This document shows, piece by piece, positions 11,489 to 13,244 of a DNA stretch of 24,000 nt. The translations under genes and the position numbers were made by a program. The DNA is taken from the NCBI RefSeq assembly GCF_014842915.1, contig NZ_JACYXI010000001.1:569887-593886 (forward strand), in the 5' to 3' direction. Position 1 is the stretch's first letter; each line of letters opens with the position of its first letter. The stretch comes from Roseibium litorale (lineage in GTDB: Bacteria > Pseudomonadota > Alphaproteobacteria > Rhizobiales > Stappiaceae). The notes beneath the pieces are model-generated. The model searched no databases, was not told the DNA's origin, and worked only from the letters and a program-made list of their open reading frames with translations.

Positions 11489-12127
11489 TTAGCTTGACTT
11501 TAGATCCGAGATCACGGTCTTGGCGGATGTTCCAGCTGTTGTACTGACGTTTCCGAAAACGGTCACGGCCTGGTTCACCATGTTCTGGATATCCTCCATG
11601 AACGGGATTTCCTTGATCGTGGAGGCAGGCTGCGGGCCCTCCGCCGCCTTCTTGATGGCCACGGCCTGGGCCGCAACAGCAATCTGCATGATTGCGTTCA
11701 TGTAGTTCTTTGCATCCTGCACGGCCATCCCCGCGGTTTGACTGACCATAATTTCCGGCGGCGTGAACGCAACGTTGTCTGCATAGTTGCTCGTCTCCGT
11801 GTTAGAAAACTGCACCGCCTGAACCACCTGCTGGTTGAGAGCCGAAACATTCGGCGTCGGAGCCTTGGCTGCCAGTGCAGCGCGTGGGCTTCCTGGTATC
11901 TGGGCGGTCTTCTGGGACATGGCTGCCGCAGTCTGCTTCTGGTCGCCATTGCGGGCGGCGTTTCCAGCTTGTGCCCCGGCCTGCGCTCCTGCCTGTCCAG
12001 CAACCTGGCCTGCTGCCTGCCCAGCACCAGCCGGAGAAGTCTTGGGAGCCGTCTCACCAGGCGAGGAATTGCCGCCATCCCCGGCACCGGGCGCGGAACG
12101 CGCGCCAAACCAGCCACTCAATCCCAT
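11489..12127 (-). CDS. Divergent RebB-domain (R-body-like) protein with a low-complexity G/A/Q/P-rich N-terminus
   Basis: ATG at 12127 with AAGGAGA 6 nt upstream, giving 212 aa. The N-terminal ~95 aa are low complexity (AGQAAGQVAGQAGAQAGAQAG). The core aligns by eye to RebB: NQQVVQAVQFSN vs NSQITDAVTQTN, SQTAGMAVQDA vs AHSTGVLFENA, and AVAAQAVAI vs AVAAQQQQNI. It lies directly downstream of rebB-2. Confidence 0.6.
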   Translation of the reverse strand: MGLSGWFGARSAPGAGDGGNSSPGETAPKTSPAGAGQAAGQVAGQAGAQAGAQAGNAARNGDQKQTAAAMSQKTAQIPGSPRAALAAKAPTPNVSALNQQVVQAVQFSNTETSNYADNVAFTPPEIMVSQTAGMAVQDAKNYMNAIMQIAVAAQAVAIKKAAEGPQPASTIKEIPFMEDIQNMVNQAVTVFGNVSTTAGTSAKTVISDLKSS

Positions 12128-12212
12128 GGTCCGTCTCCTTGTGATACTCGCAGGACGCAATCATCCTGATGATGGCAGACAACAGGCCCAGCCCGTCTTC
12201 CTGCCCGAACTG

Positions 12213-12437
12213 TTATTCGCCGATATCCATGATCAACTGACAGGCTTTGGACACGACCGCTGTCGTGATCTGGTTCATCGCCTGCTGACTGTGGACGGCA
12301 TTTTGAATCGAAAGTCCCGAGGCATGGCTTGCGACCTGGTACAGGGCCGCAATCGCTTGTGCCGGTGCTTCGGCAACCACTTTAACGTTGGTCTGGGTGA
12401 CGGCGTCCGTAATCTGGGAATTGACATTATCGGCCAT
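12213..12437 (-). CDS. rebB: RebB-family R-body ('killing trait') protein, copy 2 (short form, 74 aa)
   Basis: MADNVNSQITDAVTQTNVKVVAEAPAQAIAALYQVASHASGLSIQNAVHSQQAMN matches the RebB signature. I prefer the ATG at 12437. The ORF-track start at 12512 adds 25 residues that are not family-like. Confidence 0.88.
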   Translation of the reverse strand: MADNVNSQITDAVTQTNVKVVAEAPAQAIAALYQVASHASGLSIQNAVHSQQAMNQITTAVVSKACQLIMDIGE

Positions 12438-12536
12438 GGTCTCGTCCTGTCCTTTTCGCAGCCGGGCGCACATCCGGCGTGGGGCAACGGCAAAGACAGG
12501 GCACTCACGCACTCATGCACCTGTCCGCCACTCAGA

Positions 12537-12560
12537 GACGCGTCACCCCGCCGCGCGTGA
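12537..12560 (-). promoter_or_regulatory. Candidate ECF-type promoter for rebB-2 (TCAC-N15-GCGTC), overlapping the 3' end of the sigma gene
   Basis: On the minus strand, TCAC is at 12560-12557 (inside the last sigma codons) and GCGTC is at 12541-12537 (overlapping the sigma stop codon at 12545-12543 by one base and running 3' of it). It lies 99 nt before the rebB-2 ATG. GCGTCTCTG is identical to the rebB-1 site. Confidence 0.4.
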
Positions 12561-13199
12561 AAGACGTTTCAGACTTTTTTCCCGCAAACATCCTTCAGGG
12601 ACATTGCAGGTTTCCCCCTCCCCCAGCGCCTGCCGCAACCGCTCCCTGAGATGTTGCACCCGTTTGCGCGCTAGCGGCTCCGAAATGGCAAGCCGCTCTG
12701 CAATATCCCGGTAGCTTTGCTCCTCACAAAACCTGAGGCGGAAGACCTTTCGTAACTCTGGAGGCAGGGCATTCACTACATGGACCACTGCCCGCAGCGT
12801 ATCCTGATGACGCAAGAGGTTCTCCTGATCCGGCTGATTGTTGGACAGGGAACTCTCGTGATCGATGTAGACATCGGCCCCGAAATCCCGAACCTGCCGT
12901 TCCGACTGCACCCTGCGCATGCGGGAGATATGCTCATTCTTCATCGCAAACAGCAGGAAGGCGCGCGGCTCACGAATCTCCGTGTCGTTCCTCTCCACGT
13001 GAGCGACGGCCTTTACCAGCGTGGAGGACAAGAGATCCTCCGCATCCTCCCGGTTGCCGCGGGTCAGACGGAGGGCGCGCCGTCTGAGCACGGCCGCATC
13101 CTCGATCCAGCTCATCCAGATGCCAGCCGCTGACGGTATCCCGCCATTTTCCGGTCCATCTCTGTCGGTCACGAAGTCCTCCCGGTCCCGCAAGGTCAT
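12543..13199 (-). CDS. ECF-type RNA polymerase sigma-70 family factor
   Basis: A region 2-like segment (RRRALRLTRGNREDAEDLLSSTLVKA...REPRAFLLFAMKNEHISRMRR) and a region 4 HTH (LPPELRKVFRLRFCEEQSYRDIAERLAISEPLARKRVQHLRERLRQAL) are present. I prefer the ATG at 13199 (AAGGAAACAGG directly upstream), giving 218 aa. The ORF-track start at 13379 is less likely. Confidence 0.85.
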   Translation of the reverse strand: MTLRDREDFVTDRDGPENGGIPSAAGIWMSWIEDAAVLRRRALRLTRGNREDAEDLLSSTLVKAVAHVERNDTEIREPRAFLLFAMKNEHISRMRRVQSERQVRDFGADVYIDHESSLSNNQPDQENLLRHQDTLRAVVHVVNALPPELRKVFRLRFCEEQSYRDIAERLAISEPLARKRVQHLRERLRQALGEGETCNVPEGCLREKSLKRLSRAAG

Positions 13200-13220
13200 C
13201 CTGTTTCCTTTACCGGAGAA

Positions 13221-13244
13221 GACGCTGACCTCATCGCGATGTGA
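13221..13244 (-). promoter_or_regulatory. Candidate autoregulatory ECF-type promoter of the sigma gene (TCAC-N15-GCGTC)
   Basis: On the minus strand, TCAC is at 13244-13241 and GCGTC at 13225-13221, 21 nt before the ATG at 13199. This would leave a short leader that still contains the SD. Confidence 0.4.

What the first reader, a model, noticed from the sequence alone, without database searches (positions are those of the whole stretch)
11489..13244. R-body locus B: apparent operon of ECF sigma factor, short rebB and a long Reb-like gene
On the minus strand an ECF sigma gene (13199-12543) is followed by a 74-aa RebB-family gene after 105 nt (12437-12213). An 85-nt gap then leads to a 212-aa divergent Reb-like gene (12127-11489). 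I see no terminator between the three genes. The last gene ends only 19 nt from the stop of the convergent SMP-30-like gene, again with no obvious terminator. RebB-family proteins are the building blocks of R-bodies, the pH-triggered extendable protein ribbons first described in Caedibacter. As I recall the literature, an ECF sigma (FecI2) controls the reb cluster in Pseudomonas aeruginosa PA14 and an activator is encoded in the Azorhizobium caulinodans reb operon. That recollection should be verified. No anti-sigma gene is evident next to the sigma gene, so how the system is kept off is an open question.
Basis: partly seen in the sequence, partly recalled or inferred. Interest (0 to 1): 0.7.

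Follow-up and report, generated by a model that had tools for sequence, protein, structure and literature searches.

The report
Sigma-controlled R-body accessory gene module
These three genes in the marine bacterium Roseibium litorale match the Pseudomonas aeruginosa fecI2-rebD-rapA genes, which switch on and accompany R-bodies (spring-like protein ribbons), so this is a clear but ordinary new example of a known gene cluster.

Summary
In detail: three co-oriented minus-strand genes at the stated coordinates, with the stated gaps and no canonical terminator between them. The window is Roseibium litorale.

- **Gene 1** is an ECF-type sigma factor, 35% identical to P. aeruginosa FecI2.
- **Gene 2** is a RebB-family protein of the RebD type (PF11747, E=1.5e-26).
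- **Gene 3** has no direct RebB hit. It is a homologue of RapA, the R-body-associated protein of PA14 (E=6e-24). Its conserved domain links to RebB through intermediate sequences.

The sigma-rebD-rapA order holds in 72 of 80 loci from Alpha-, Beta- and Gammaproteobacteria. "Locus B" is half of one ancestral reb cluster that was split by rearrangement. The main structural gene, rebP, lies at about 3773-4093.

A promoter-like motif, TCAC-N15-GCGTC, occurs four times in the window. The copies sit upstream of sigma, rebD, a small ORF plus gene X, and rebP. The same motif is conserved upstream of rebD and rebP across clades, including the FecI2-dependent PrebP1 region of PA14.

The best model is a self-activating sigma with no anti-sigma that drives separate reb transcription units, not one simple operon. 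Stappiaceae lack the rcgA co-regulator. This cluster type has been described since 2013, so it is a new member of a known kind.

The parts
13221..13244 (-). Candidate sigma-dependent promoter of the sigma gene (autoregulation): TCACATCGCGATGAGGTCAGCGTC. It ends 22 nt before ATG 13199.
   Evidence: One of four window hits to TCAC-N14-16-GCGTC, against 0.78 expected. The same motif sits about 45 nt before the sigma start in 31/33 Stappiaceae, against 1/33 for the reverse-strand control. The block is nearly identical in R. suaedae.
12543..13199 (-). ECF-type sigma-70 family factor, 218 aa, a homologue of P. aeruginosa FecI2 (PA14_27690).
   Evidence: Pfam Sigma70_r2 and r4_2; TIGR02937 at 67.3 bits against a cut-off of 42.9. 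35% identity over 172 aa to FecI2, E=4e-26. NCBI WP_209007240.1.
12537..12560 (-). Candidate sigma-dependent promoter of rebD-rapA: TCACGCGCGGCGGGGTGACGCGTC. It overlaps the sigma stop codon.
   Evidence: Conserved in all 23 aligned Stappiaceae. The relaxed motif lies upstream of rebD in 78/81 loci, including P. aeruginosa; the reverse-strand control over the rebD and rebP windows together gives 4/150.
12213..12437 (-). rebD-type RebB-family gene, 74 aa.
   Evidence: PF11747 E=1.5e-26. 95% identical to Polymorphum and 76% to the P. aeruginosa RebD-type protein. Sits directly after the sigma gene in 75/80 loci.
12174..12205 (-). GC-rich hairpin just after the rebD stop with no U-tract. Possible attenuator or stabiliser; weak evidence.
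   Evidence: Fold of the 85-nt spacer gives -31.8 kcal/mol, z=-1.8. A comparable hairpin occurs only in R. suaedae and not in other Roseibium.
11489..12127 (-). rapA-type gene, 212 aa. It has a disordered Ala/Gly/Gln/Pro-rich N-terminal part (about residues 1-90) and a conserved helical C-terminal domain (about residues 90-212) that is a very divergent RebB-like domain.
   Evidence: 38% identity over 137 aa to P. aeruginosa RapA, E=6e-24. 75 homologues with only the C-terminal domain conserved. hhalign against RebB scores 31.9, against a shuffle null of 12.5±2.7. Bridging sequences hit both profiles. The AF2 model has pLDDT 54, with residues 1-98 disordered and three helices.
3693..3717 (+). 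Candidate sigma-dependent promoter of rebP (outside the finding): TCACAAGCTGCCGCAGCGATGCGTC.
   Evidence: The motif lies upstream of the first rebP in 69/69 loci. The P. aeruginosa rebP1 upstream region carries TCACAACTCCCTGGCTGGAGCGTT, inside the 500-bp PrebP1 reporter that needs FecI2 (PMC8322103).
3773..4093 (+). rebP-type major R-body structural gene ("locus A"). The likely start is ATG 3773 (106 aa) and not 3767.
   Evidence: PF11747 E=1.7e-28. 75% identical to P. aeruginosa RebP1, E=6e-56. SD spacing favours 3773.
6196..6219 (+). Fourth copy of the promoter motif: TCACAAGCGCCGTCTGCCTGCGTC.
   Evidence: It lies 33 nt before ORF 6252-6512.
6252..7183 (+). Small ORF (6252-6512, 86 aa) plus gene X (6611-7183, 190 aa). 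These are cluster-associated genes of unknown function that lie between rapA and rebP in other Stappiaceae.
   Evidence: X homologues occur in 24 Stappiaceae reb loci. The 86-aa ORF has homologues in R. suaedae and R. algae, directly after rapA in R. algae. No Pfam hit. UniRef names X "Phasin family".

Best explanation
Locus B is the regulatory and accessory half of a PA14-type (Raymann "Group 2") R-body gene cluster in Roseibium litorale. It holds a FecI2-type ECF sigma factor, then rebD and rapA.

**Proposed mechanism**
1. The sigma factor recognises promoters of the form (G/T)TCAC(A/G)-N14-GCGTC(C/T).
2. One such promoter precedes its own gene, giving positive autoregulation.
3. A second overlaps the end of the sigma gene and drives rebD-rapA.
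4. Two more, 5-9 kb away on the other strand, drive the small ORF plus gene X and the structural gene rebP.
5. RebP polymerises into the R-body ribbon. RapA, a divergent Reb-like protein with a disordered N-terminal tail, associates with the ribbon. RebD is an accessory of unknown role.
6. There is no anti-sigma factor and, in Stappiaceae, no RcgA. The off state is therefore set by how little sigma is made. A self-activating loop of this kind would fire in only a few cells, as seen in PA14.

**Shown here:** gene identities, synteny, and motif conservation and positions.

**Inferred:** that the motif is the sigma's promoter, that autoregulation occurs, that expression is bistable, and that R-bodies are actually made.
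For: **Identities.**

**Synteny.** The sigma-rebD-rapA triad is strictly adjacent in 72/80 loci. Three of the eight exceptions are contig ends.

**One ancestral cluster.** Typical Roseibium have the contiguous order sigma-rebD-rapA-X-rebP-rhodanese-199aa-SMP30. The window and R. suaedae carry the same genes in rearranged order.

**Motif.**
- Four of four strict window hits lie in the correct orientation, with the motif ending 22 to about 100 nt before the start codon of the next reb-cluster gene, against 0.78 hits expected.
- It is conserved upstream of rebD in 78/81 loci and of rebP in 69/69 loci. The reverse-strand control gives 4/150.
- It lies upstream of sigma in 31/33 Stappiaceae, against 1/33 in the control.
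- The spacing is typical of ECF -35/-10 elements with a CGTC -10 (general knowledge of ECF promoters).

**Experimental anchors in PA14.**
- PrebP1, the 500 bp upstream of rebP1 that contains the motif, requires FecI2 and RcgA and fires in 0.26% of cells (PMC8322103).
- fecI2 and rapA are in the FecI2 primary regulon by ChIP plus RNA evidence (PMC4362757 supplement).
- RapA co-purifies and co-localises with R-bodies, whereas RebD was not detected in them (PMC8322103).

**No candidate partners.** No RcgA-like ORF occurs in the 33 Stappiaceae loci or the window. No anti-sigma candidate is present.
Against: - There are no expression or microscopy data for any Stappiaceae, so R-body formation is unproven.
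- The motif could be recognised by another factor. TCACA is also a Crp-family half-site, and in PA14 RcgA is co-required.
- With no terminator between sigma and rebD, read-through would produce a tricistronic transcript as well.
- The published FecI2 motif (PMC4362757, Fig. 2) could not be read here for comparison.
- R. litorale has a single rebP, and the split arrangement could have impaired function.
- RcgA or another regulator may be encoded outside the 24-kb window.
Confidence: 0.75

Rival explanations
1. The three genes form one simple tricistronic operon transcribed only from upstream of sigma. On this reading the conserved sequence at the sigma/rebD junction is not a promoter.
For: The genes are co-oriented with gaps of 105 and 85 nt and no canonical terminator. 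The triad order is conserved.
Against: The junction motif has the same sequence and spacing as the motifs upstream of sigma, rebP and gene X. It is conserved upstream of rebD in 78/81 loci across three proteobacterial classes although it overlaps coding sequence. In PA14, rapA appears in the FecI2 ChIP plus RNA regulon as its own entry.
Confidence: 0.15
2. The TCAC-N15-GCGTC element is the binding site of a different regulator, for example a Crp/Fnr-type protein such as RcgA encoded elsewhere in the genome. The sigma's true promoter elements would then differ.
For: TCACA is a Crp-family half-site (general knowledge). RcgA is co-required at PrebP1 in PA14 (PMC8322103). RebR, a Crp-Fnr protein, activates the A. 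caulinodans reb operon (PMC5527310).
Against: The element is asymmetric, strand-specific (122 plus-strand against 28 minus-strand hits) and at a fixed short distance before start codons. Those features fit a promoter and not a dyad operator. It is fully conserved in Stappiaceae, which have no rcgA in or near the cluster.
Confidence: 0.1
3. The locus is a decaying remnant. The rearrangement that split the cluster in the R. litorale/R. suaedae lineage uncoupled it, and it no longer makes R-bodies.
For: The cluster is split and partly inverted relative to other Roseibium, and only one rebP remains with no second divergent reb gene. Some Roseibium MAGs have a broken or missing sigma, L008 and L010.
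Against: All five reb-associated ORFs are intact. All four promoter motifs are retained in the window, and the sigma and rebD motifs are also retained in R. suaedae. RebD is 100% identical and RapA 81% identical between the two species. Several other Roseibium also carry a single rebP.
Confidence: 0.07

Closest known systems
Pseudomonas aeruginosa PA14 reb cluster (rcgA-fecI2-rebD-rapA-...-rebP1-rebP2; Wang et al. 2021, PMC8322103)
   Same: The gene order sigma-rebD-rapA is the same. Identity is 35% for sigma, 76% for RebD, 38% for RapA and 75% for RebP. The same promoter-like motif lies upstream of rebD and rebP1. Neither has an anti-sigma gene.
   Different: There is no rcgA in the window or near any Stappiaceae cluster. 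The 713-, 64-, 79- and 181-aa PA14 genes have no homologues. There is one rebP, not two. Here the motif lies directly upstream of sigma, whereas in P. aeruginosa it lies upstream of rcgA. The cluster is split into two convergently oriented halves.
"Group 2 synteny pattern" of Reb loci (Raymann et al. 2013, PMC3583457), equivalent to groups 2/3/S4 of Dorr et al. 2026 (PMC13430693)
   Same: Reb genes occur with hypothetical proteins of about 205-220 aa (HP2.1/HP2.2), a sigma factor (HP2.3) and often a cNMP-binding regulator (HP2.4). RapA is classed as a weakly similar "secondary" Reb, group S4. Roseibium is listed among the genera rich in reb genes.
   Different: Those surveys set the sigma factors aside, and the passages read here mention no promoter motif. 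The HP2.4 regulator is absent here.
Caedibacter taeniospiralis rebABCD operon (type 51 R-bodies)
   Same: It uses RebB-family structural proteins and includes a short RebD paralogue that is dispensable for assembly (PMC3583457).
   Different: It is a plasmid-borne four-gene operon with RebC. It has no sigma factor and no RapA.
Azorhizobium caulinodans reb operon with RebR and PraR (Matsuoka et al. 2017, PMC5527310)
   Same: It is an alphaproteobacterial R-body cluster that carries its own activator and is tightly repressed by default.
   Different: The activator is a Crp-Fnr protein and not a sigma factor, and repression is by PraR. PraR boxes (CAAC-N5-GTTG) are not enriched here.
True FecI-type iron-starvation ECF sigma factors with FecR anti-sigma
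   Same: They share the ECF sigma2/sigma4 architecture and the name "FecI2".
   Different: The NCBIfam FecI model scores 32.8 bits against a cut-off of 260. There is no FecR or TonB-receptor neighbour. The name is historical.

Membership tests
RebB / 'killing trait' family (PF11747), 74-aa protein | Significant match to the PF11747 HMM over its full length | tested here: met
   92.7 bits against a cut-off of 24, E=1.5e-26, profile positions 1-65 of 68.
RebD subgroup of Reb proteins, 74-aa protein | Short Reb paralogue closest to PA14_27685-type proteins, located directly after the cluster sigma factor | tested here: met
   76% identical to the 80-aa P. aeruginosa protein at the rebD position. 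Only 43-55% identical to RebP-type proteins. The sigma-rebD adjacency holds in 75/80 loci. Phylogenetic placement with C. taeniospiralis RebD itself was not tested.
RebB / 'killing trait' family (PF11747), 212-aa protein | Significant direct match to the PF11747 HMM | tested here: not met
   No hit at E<=10 for the protein or for any of 39 family members. BLASTP against both window Rebs is not significant.
RebB superfamily (remote), 212-aa protein | Profile-profile or transitive homology to RebB | tested here: met
   hhalign E=1.7e-4 over 62 ungapped columns. Scores of 31.9 and 19.2 against column-shuffle nulls of 12.5±2.7 and 11.3±2.3, with 0/100 shuffles reaching them. Of 40 distant hits to the RapA profile, 10 hit PF11747, best E=1.9e-6. 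P0280 and P0264 match a RebB HMM end to end. Dorr et al. 2026 class RapA as Reb group S4.
[quoted passage not shown] | Sequence homology to PA14 RapA and position directly after rebD | tested here: met
   38% identity over 137 aa, E=6e-24, to the 210-aa protein after rebD in P. aeruginosa. A RapA homologue follows rebD in 77/80 loci.
RapA family | Physical association with R-bodies | not testable with these tools
   Shown only for PA14, by mass spectrometry of the SDS-insoluble fraction and by co-localisation (PMC8322103).
ECF (group IV) sigma-70 factors | Sigma2 and sigma4 domains only, size about 200 aa, match to the TIGR02937 ECF model | tested here: met
   Sigma70_r2 at residues 38-98 and r4_2 at 136-188. 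TIGR02937 at 67.3 bits against a cut-off of 42.9.
FecI2-type reb-cluster sigma factors (Raymann HP2.3) | Homology to PA14_27690 plus location at the head of a reb cluster | tested here: met
   35% identity over 172 aa, E=4e-26. Synteny holds in 75/80 loci. A formal reciprocal-best-hit test or tree was not done.
FecI-type iron-starvation sigma/FecR systems | Match to the FecI equivalog model and an adjacent FecR anti-sigma | tested here: not met
   NF041727 at 32.8 bits against a cut-off of 260. The neighbours are an acyltransferase and rebD, with no FecR.
PA14-type reb cluster | Presence of the Crp-type co-regulator rcgA | tested here: not met
   No tblastn or HMM hit in the window or in 33 Stappiaceae loci at ±6 kb. 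The rest of the genome could not be searched.
PA14-type reb cluster | Presence of RebP-type structural gene(s) | tested here: met
   Window gene 3773-4093 is 75% identical to RebP1. It lies 7.4 kb away on the other strand because of a rearrangement.
Single operon (sigma-rebD-rapA) | Co-orientation, short gaps, no internal terminator AND no internal promoter | tested here: inconclusive
   The first three criteria are met. A conserved promoter-like motif lies between sigma and rebD. Transcript mapping is needed.
R-body producers | Refractile coiled ribbons visible by EM | not testable with these tools
   This needs an experiment.

The most novel reading that the evidence does not exclude
RebD may be the missing negative partner of the sigma factor and not a building block of the ribbon. 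It sits where ECF systems normally encode their anti-sigma: immediately downstream of sigma, behind a sigma-type promoter, in 75/80 loci. It was not detected in PA14 R-bodies and is dispensable for R-body assembly in E. coli. A RebD that holds back sigma until it is titrated by polymerising RebP/RapA would couple assembly to expression. It would also explain both the missing anti-sigma and the rare all-or-none firing.
Probability: 0.07. Interest if true: 0.7.

Novelty: new member of a known kind. Interest (0 to 1): 0.35.

Why it matters
R-bodies are among the largest force-generating protein machines in bacteria, and outside Caedibacter, PA14 and Azorhizobium their regulation is barely studied.

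This locus adds little that is new in kind. Its comparative context still gives three usable results:

1. **A testable promoter motif.** (G/T)TCAC(A/G)-N14-GCGTC marks every transcription unit of the cluster and is conserved across Alpha-, Beta- and Gammaproteobacteria. That defines a compact sigma regulon which could be predicted genome-wide.
2. **A simpler circuit in Stappiaceae.** These clusters run without the RcgA co-regulator. R. litorale and R. suaedae have even split the cluster, which shows that the genes are coupled through the regulon and not through one operon.
3. **RapA is a Reb relative.** RapA is tied to the RebB superfamily through bridging sequences, which supports the idea that it is a structural component.

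Roseibium/Labrenzia species associate with dinoflagellates, sponges and corals, so an R-body switch there could matter for interactions with hosts or grazers.

Tried and rejected
- **Direct RebB homology of the 212-aa protein.** Pfam and NCBIfam gave nothing for the protein or for 39 family members, and BLASTP was not significant. Only profile-level and transitive evidence worked.
- **Structure route.**
  - The AF2 model has pLDDT 54, which is too poor to use.
  - PDB holds no Reb or RapA relative by sequence.
- **PraR-type repression, as in Azorhizobium.** CAAC-N5-GTTG occurs at the chance level and not at the promoters.
- **RcgA-like regulator nearby.** None was found by tblastn or by an RcgA HMM.
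- **Gene X as a homologue of the PA14 181-aa gene that precedes rebP in Gamma- and Betaproteobacteria.** hhalign gave P=0.02, which is inconclusive. The small ORF against the PA14 64- and 79-aa genes was also inconclusive.
- **Terminator or attenuator between rebD and rapA.** A GC hairpin exists (z=-1.8), but it is shared only with R. suaedae.
- **Bidirectional terminator at the rapA/SMP-30 junction.** The folds are not better than shuffles.
- **Sigma-70-type promoters.** There is only one weak minus-strand match, overlapping the rebD start, and it was not pursued.
- **Composition.** There is no GC anomaly across the locus.
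Full report
**Observation**

- 13199-12543 encodes 218 aa.
- 12437-12213 encodes 74 aa.
- 12127-11489 encodes 212 aa.
- The gaps are 105 and 85 nt.
- The last stop lies 19 nt from the stop of a convergent SMP-30/gluconolactonase gene at 10564-11469.
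- A consensus scan finds no intrinsic-terminator-like site between the three genes on that strand.
- Base composition shows nothing unusual across the region.

The 212-aa protein is 100% identical to a hypothetical protein of Roseibium litorale. The NCBI accessions of all three proteins confirm the organism.

**Gene identities**

The first protein has Sigma70_r2 and Sigma70_r4_2 domains. It passes the ECF superfamily model TIGR02937 at 67.3 bits against a cut-off of 42.9. It fails every specific equivalog, including FecI at 32.8 bits against 260.

The second protein is a textbook RebB-family protein (PF11747, 92.7 bits, E=1.5e-26). It is extremely conserved: 95% identical to the Polymorphum protein and 76-86% identical to proteins from Xanthomonas, Lysobacter, Burkholderia and Pseudomonas.

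The third protein has no Pfam or NCBIfam hit, and none of 39 family members has one. Its 75 homologues found by word-indexed search are all from Stappiaceae. They share only the C-terminal ~120 residues behind a variable, low-complexity N-terminal region.

**The key comparison**

I fetched the DNA around a P. aeruginosa RebB-like protein. The gene order there matches the PA14 reb cluster of Wang et al. 2021 (PMC8322103):
- a Crp-type regulator (rcgA);
- an ECF sigma (fecI2);
- an 80-aa RebB-family gene (rebD);
- a 210-aa gene with no Pfam hit (rapA);
- four further genes of unknown function;
- rebP1 and rebP2.

The window proteins match as follows.

| Window protein | P. aeruginosa protein | Identity | E-value |
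|---|---|---|---|
| Sigma | FecI2 | 35% over 172 aa | 4e-26 |
| 74-aa Reb | RebD-type | 76% | – |
| 212-aa protein | RapA | 38% over 137 aa | 6e-24 |
| Second Reb gene (~3767-4093) | RebP1 | 75% | 6e-56 |

The PA14 genes rcgA and the 713-, 64-, 79- and 181-aa genes have no counterpart in the window.

**Is the 212-aa protein Reb-like?**

Direct tests fail. Indirect tests succeed.
- Profile-profile comparison of the RapA-like family with a RebB alignment gives E=1.7e-4 over 62 ungapped columns. The RebB signature VNxQITDAVTQxN aligns on ALNxQVVQAVQFSN.
- Against 100 column-shuffled controls the score is 31.9, with a null of 12.5±2.7. With broader alignments it is 19.2, with a null of 11.3±2.3. 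No shuffle reached either value.
- P. aeruginosa RapA also hits the window rebD ORF weakly by tblastn, E=0.003.
- An exhaustive profile search of 1.84 billion representatives found only 91 family members at E<=1e-3. Of the 40 more distant ones, 10 match PF11747, best E=1.9e-6. Proteins such as P0280 and P0264 match a RebB HMM end to end.
- This agrees with Dorr et al. 2026, who file RapA under a weakly similar "secondary" Reb group, S4 (PMC13430693).

The AF2 model is poor (pLDDT 54). It predicts a disordered N-terminal ~98 residues and three long helices. No solved structure exists for either family.

**Synteny**

A scan of one genome per species returned 80 loci with a RebD-type gene. They come from Stappiaceae, Lysobacterales/Xanthomonas, Pseudomonas, Burkholderiaceae and Chromobacterium. 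The co-oriented triad sigma-rebD-rapA is strictly adjacent in 72 of them. Three of the eight exceptions are contig ends.

rcgA lies next to sigma or after rebP in the Gamma- and Betaproteobacteria. It is absent from all 33 Stappiaceae loci and from the window, even when searched with an RcgA HMM.

This is the "Group 2 synteny pattern" described in 2013, made up of the hypothetical proteins HP2.1/2.2, the sigma factor HP2.3 and the cNMP-binding regulator HP2.4 (PMC3583457).

**One cluster, split**

In typical Roseibium (R. polysiphoniae, R. algae, R. denhamense, R. hamelinense) the order is contiguous:

tRNA-Lys, sigma, rebD, rapA, (small ORF), X, rebP, (second divergent reb), UPF0176/rhodanese, a 199-aa gene, then convergent SMP-30 and Lrp.

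The window and R. suaedae differ:
- rapA abuts SMP-30.
- rebP, rhodanese, the 199-aa gene and X lie 4-8 kb away on the opposite strand.

This explains the tight 19-nt convergent junction. It also means locus B cannot make R-bodies alone. In PA14, rebP1P2 are required and RebD was not detected in purified R-bodies (PMC8322103).

**Promoters**

I aligned the 140 nt upstream of rebD from 23 Stappiaceae. One block is invariant: TCAC-N15-GCGTC. It overlaps the end of the sigma gene, and the sigma stop codon falls in the spacer.

The pattern TCAC-N14-16-GCGTC occurs exactly four times in the 24-kb window, against 0.78 expected. All four hits are in the right orientation upstream of a reb-cluster gene.

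| Position | Strand | Gene downstream |
|---|---|---|
| 13244-13221 | − | sigma (ATG 13199) |
| 12560-12537 | − | rebD |
| 3693-3717 | + | rebP |
| 6196-6219 | + | small ORF 6252-6512 and gene X |

Across all loci a slightly relaxed form gives these counts.
- It lies within 180 nt upstream of rebD in 78/81 loci.
- It lies upstream of the first rebP in 69/69 loci.
- The reverse strand of the same windows gives 4/150.

It also lies about 45 nt before the sigma start in 31/33 Stappiaceae, against 1/33 for the control.

P. aeruginosa carries it upstream of rebD, rebP1 and rcgA. The rebP1 copy lies inside the 500-bp PrebP1 reporter, whose activity needs FecI2 and RcgA. The PA14 FecI2 ChIP plus RNA regulon includes fecI2 and rapA (PMC4362757 supplement).

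The consensus is (G/T)TCAC(A/G)-N14-GCGTC(C/T)TT. It has the asymmetry, the spacing and the CGTC -10 typical of ECF promoters. That last point rests on general knowledge.

**Mechanism**

The best-supported model is an ECF sigma with no anti-sigma that activates its own promoter and at least three other units: rebD-rapA, the small ORF plus X, and rebP. Read-through from sigma into rebD-rapA remains possible because no terminator intervenes.

Control would then rest on sigma abundance. A positive loop of this kind fits the stochastic expression seen in 0.26% of PA14 cells (PMC8322103). Stappiaceae appear to run this circuit without a cluster-encoded RcgA.

What triggers the loop is unknown. The P_sigma spacer contains a palindrome: ATCGCGAT in the window, and AGGAA-N4-TTCCT-like in most other Roseibium. 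It might be an operator, but this was not tested. PraR boxes are not enriched.

**Verdict**

- The system is a new member of a known kind, and the interest is modest.
- The most useful by-products are the clade-wide promoter motif, the rcgA-less and split architecture in Stappiaceae, and the sequence bridge between RapA and RebB.

Noticed in passing
window 3693-4093 (+): The RebP-type structural gene of "locus A" probably starts at ATG 3773 (106 aa, the same length as PA14 RebP1) and not at 3767. The SD GAAGGAG is 1 nt from 3767 but 7 nt from 3773, and the 108-aa version is absent from the protein collection. The window has only this one rebP and no second divergent reb gene, unlike many Roseibium.
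   Followed up: partly
window 6196-7183 (+): A sigma-type promoter motif (6196-6219) precedes an 86-aa ORF (6252-6512) and the 190-aa gene X (6611-7183). X lies between rapA and rebP in 24 Stappiaceae reb loci, has no Pfam hit, and is named "Phasin family" by UniRef. Its relation to the PA14 181-aa gene is inconclusive (hhalign P=0.02).
   Followed up: partly
window 3700-13250 versus L021, L018, L004, L016, L003: The reb cluster is contiguous in most Roseibium. In R. litorale and R. suaedae it is split and partly inverted, with alanine dehydrogenase, Lrp, SMP-30 and lipoprotein genes now lying between the two halves.
   Followed up: yes
window 15762-15837 (-) and 13655-15676 (+): tRNA-Lys(CTT) lies about 300 nt upstream of the sigma gene in other Roseibium, as at a genomic-island insertion site. 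In the window and in R. suaedae an AT3-SGNH acyltransferase gene sits between the tRNA and sigma.
   Followed up: partly
window 13225-13232 (-); L007-L036 about 45 nt before sigma: The spacer of the sigma gene's own promoter contains a palindrome. It is ATCGCGAT in the window, AGGAA-N4-TTCCT-like in most Roseibium, and GAAGGAAT(A/T)TCTTC in Pannonibacter. It may be an operator for an unknown regulator.
   Followed up: no
window 7642-8637 (+): Three tandem paralogous ORFs of about 89-95 aa (7642-7911, 7957-8226, 8350-8637) have lipoprotein-like signal sequences and glycine-zipper cores.
   Followed up: no
window 12174-12205 (-); L003 6226-6312: A GC-rich hairpin without a U-tract sits directly after the rebD stop. 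A comparable hairpin with a different sequence exists in R. suaedae, but not in other Roseibium.
   Followed up: partly
window 13115-13199 (-): GenBank (MBD8890502.1, 190 aa) and RefSeq (WP_209007240.1, 218 aa) disagree on the sigma start. The SD and the promoter position favour ATG 13199.
   Followed up: partly
L008 5282-5920; L010: In one Roseibium MAG the sigma gene is split into two ORFs. In another MAG no sigma homologue was detected upstream of rebD. These may be pseudogenes or assembly errors.
   Followed up: no
window 4522-6129 (+): A UPF0176/rhodanese gene (4522-5430) and a 199-aa gene with a signal-peptide-like N-terminus and an internal repeat (5530-6129) follow rebP in most Roseibium reb loci examined (22 of 33 Stappiaceae loci for the 199-aa gene). 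They kept that linkage through the rearrangement.
   Followed up: no
window 7342-7365 (+): There is one extra match to the relaxed promoter pattern (TCACCTTTCCCCTTGTCCAGCGTT). It lies downstream of gene X and upstream of the lipoprotein genes, lacks the usual A/G after TCAC, and is probably chance.
   Followed up: no
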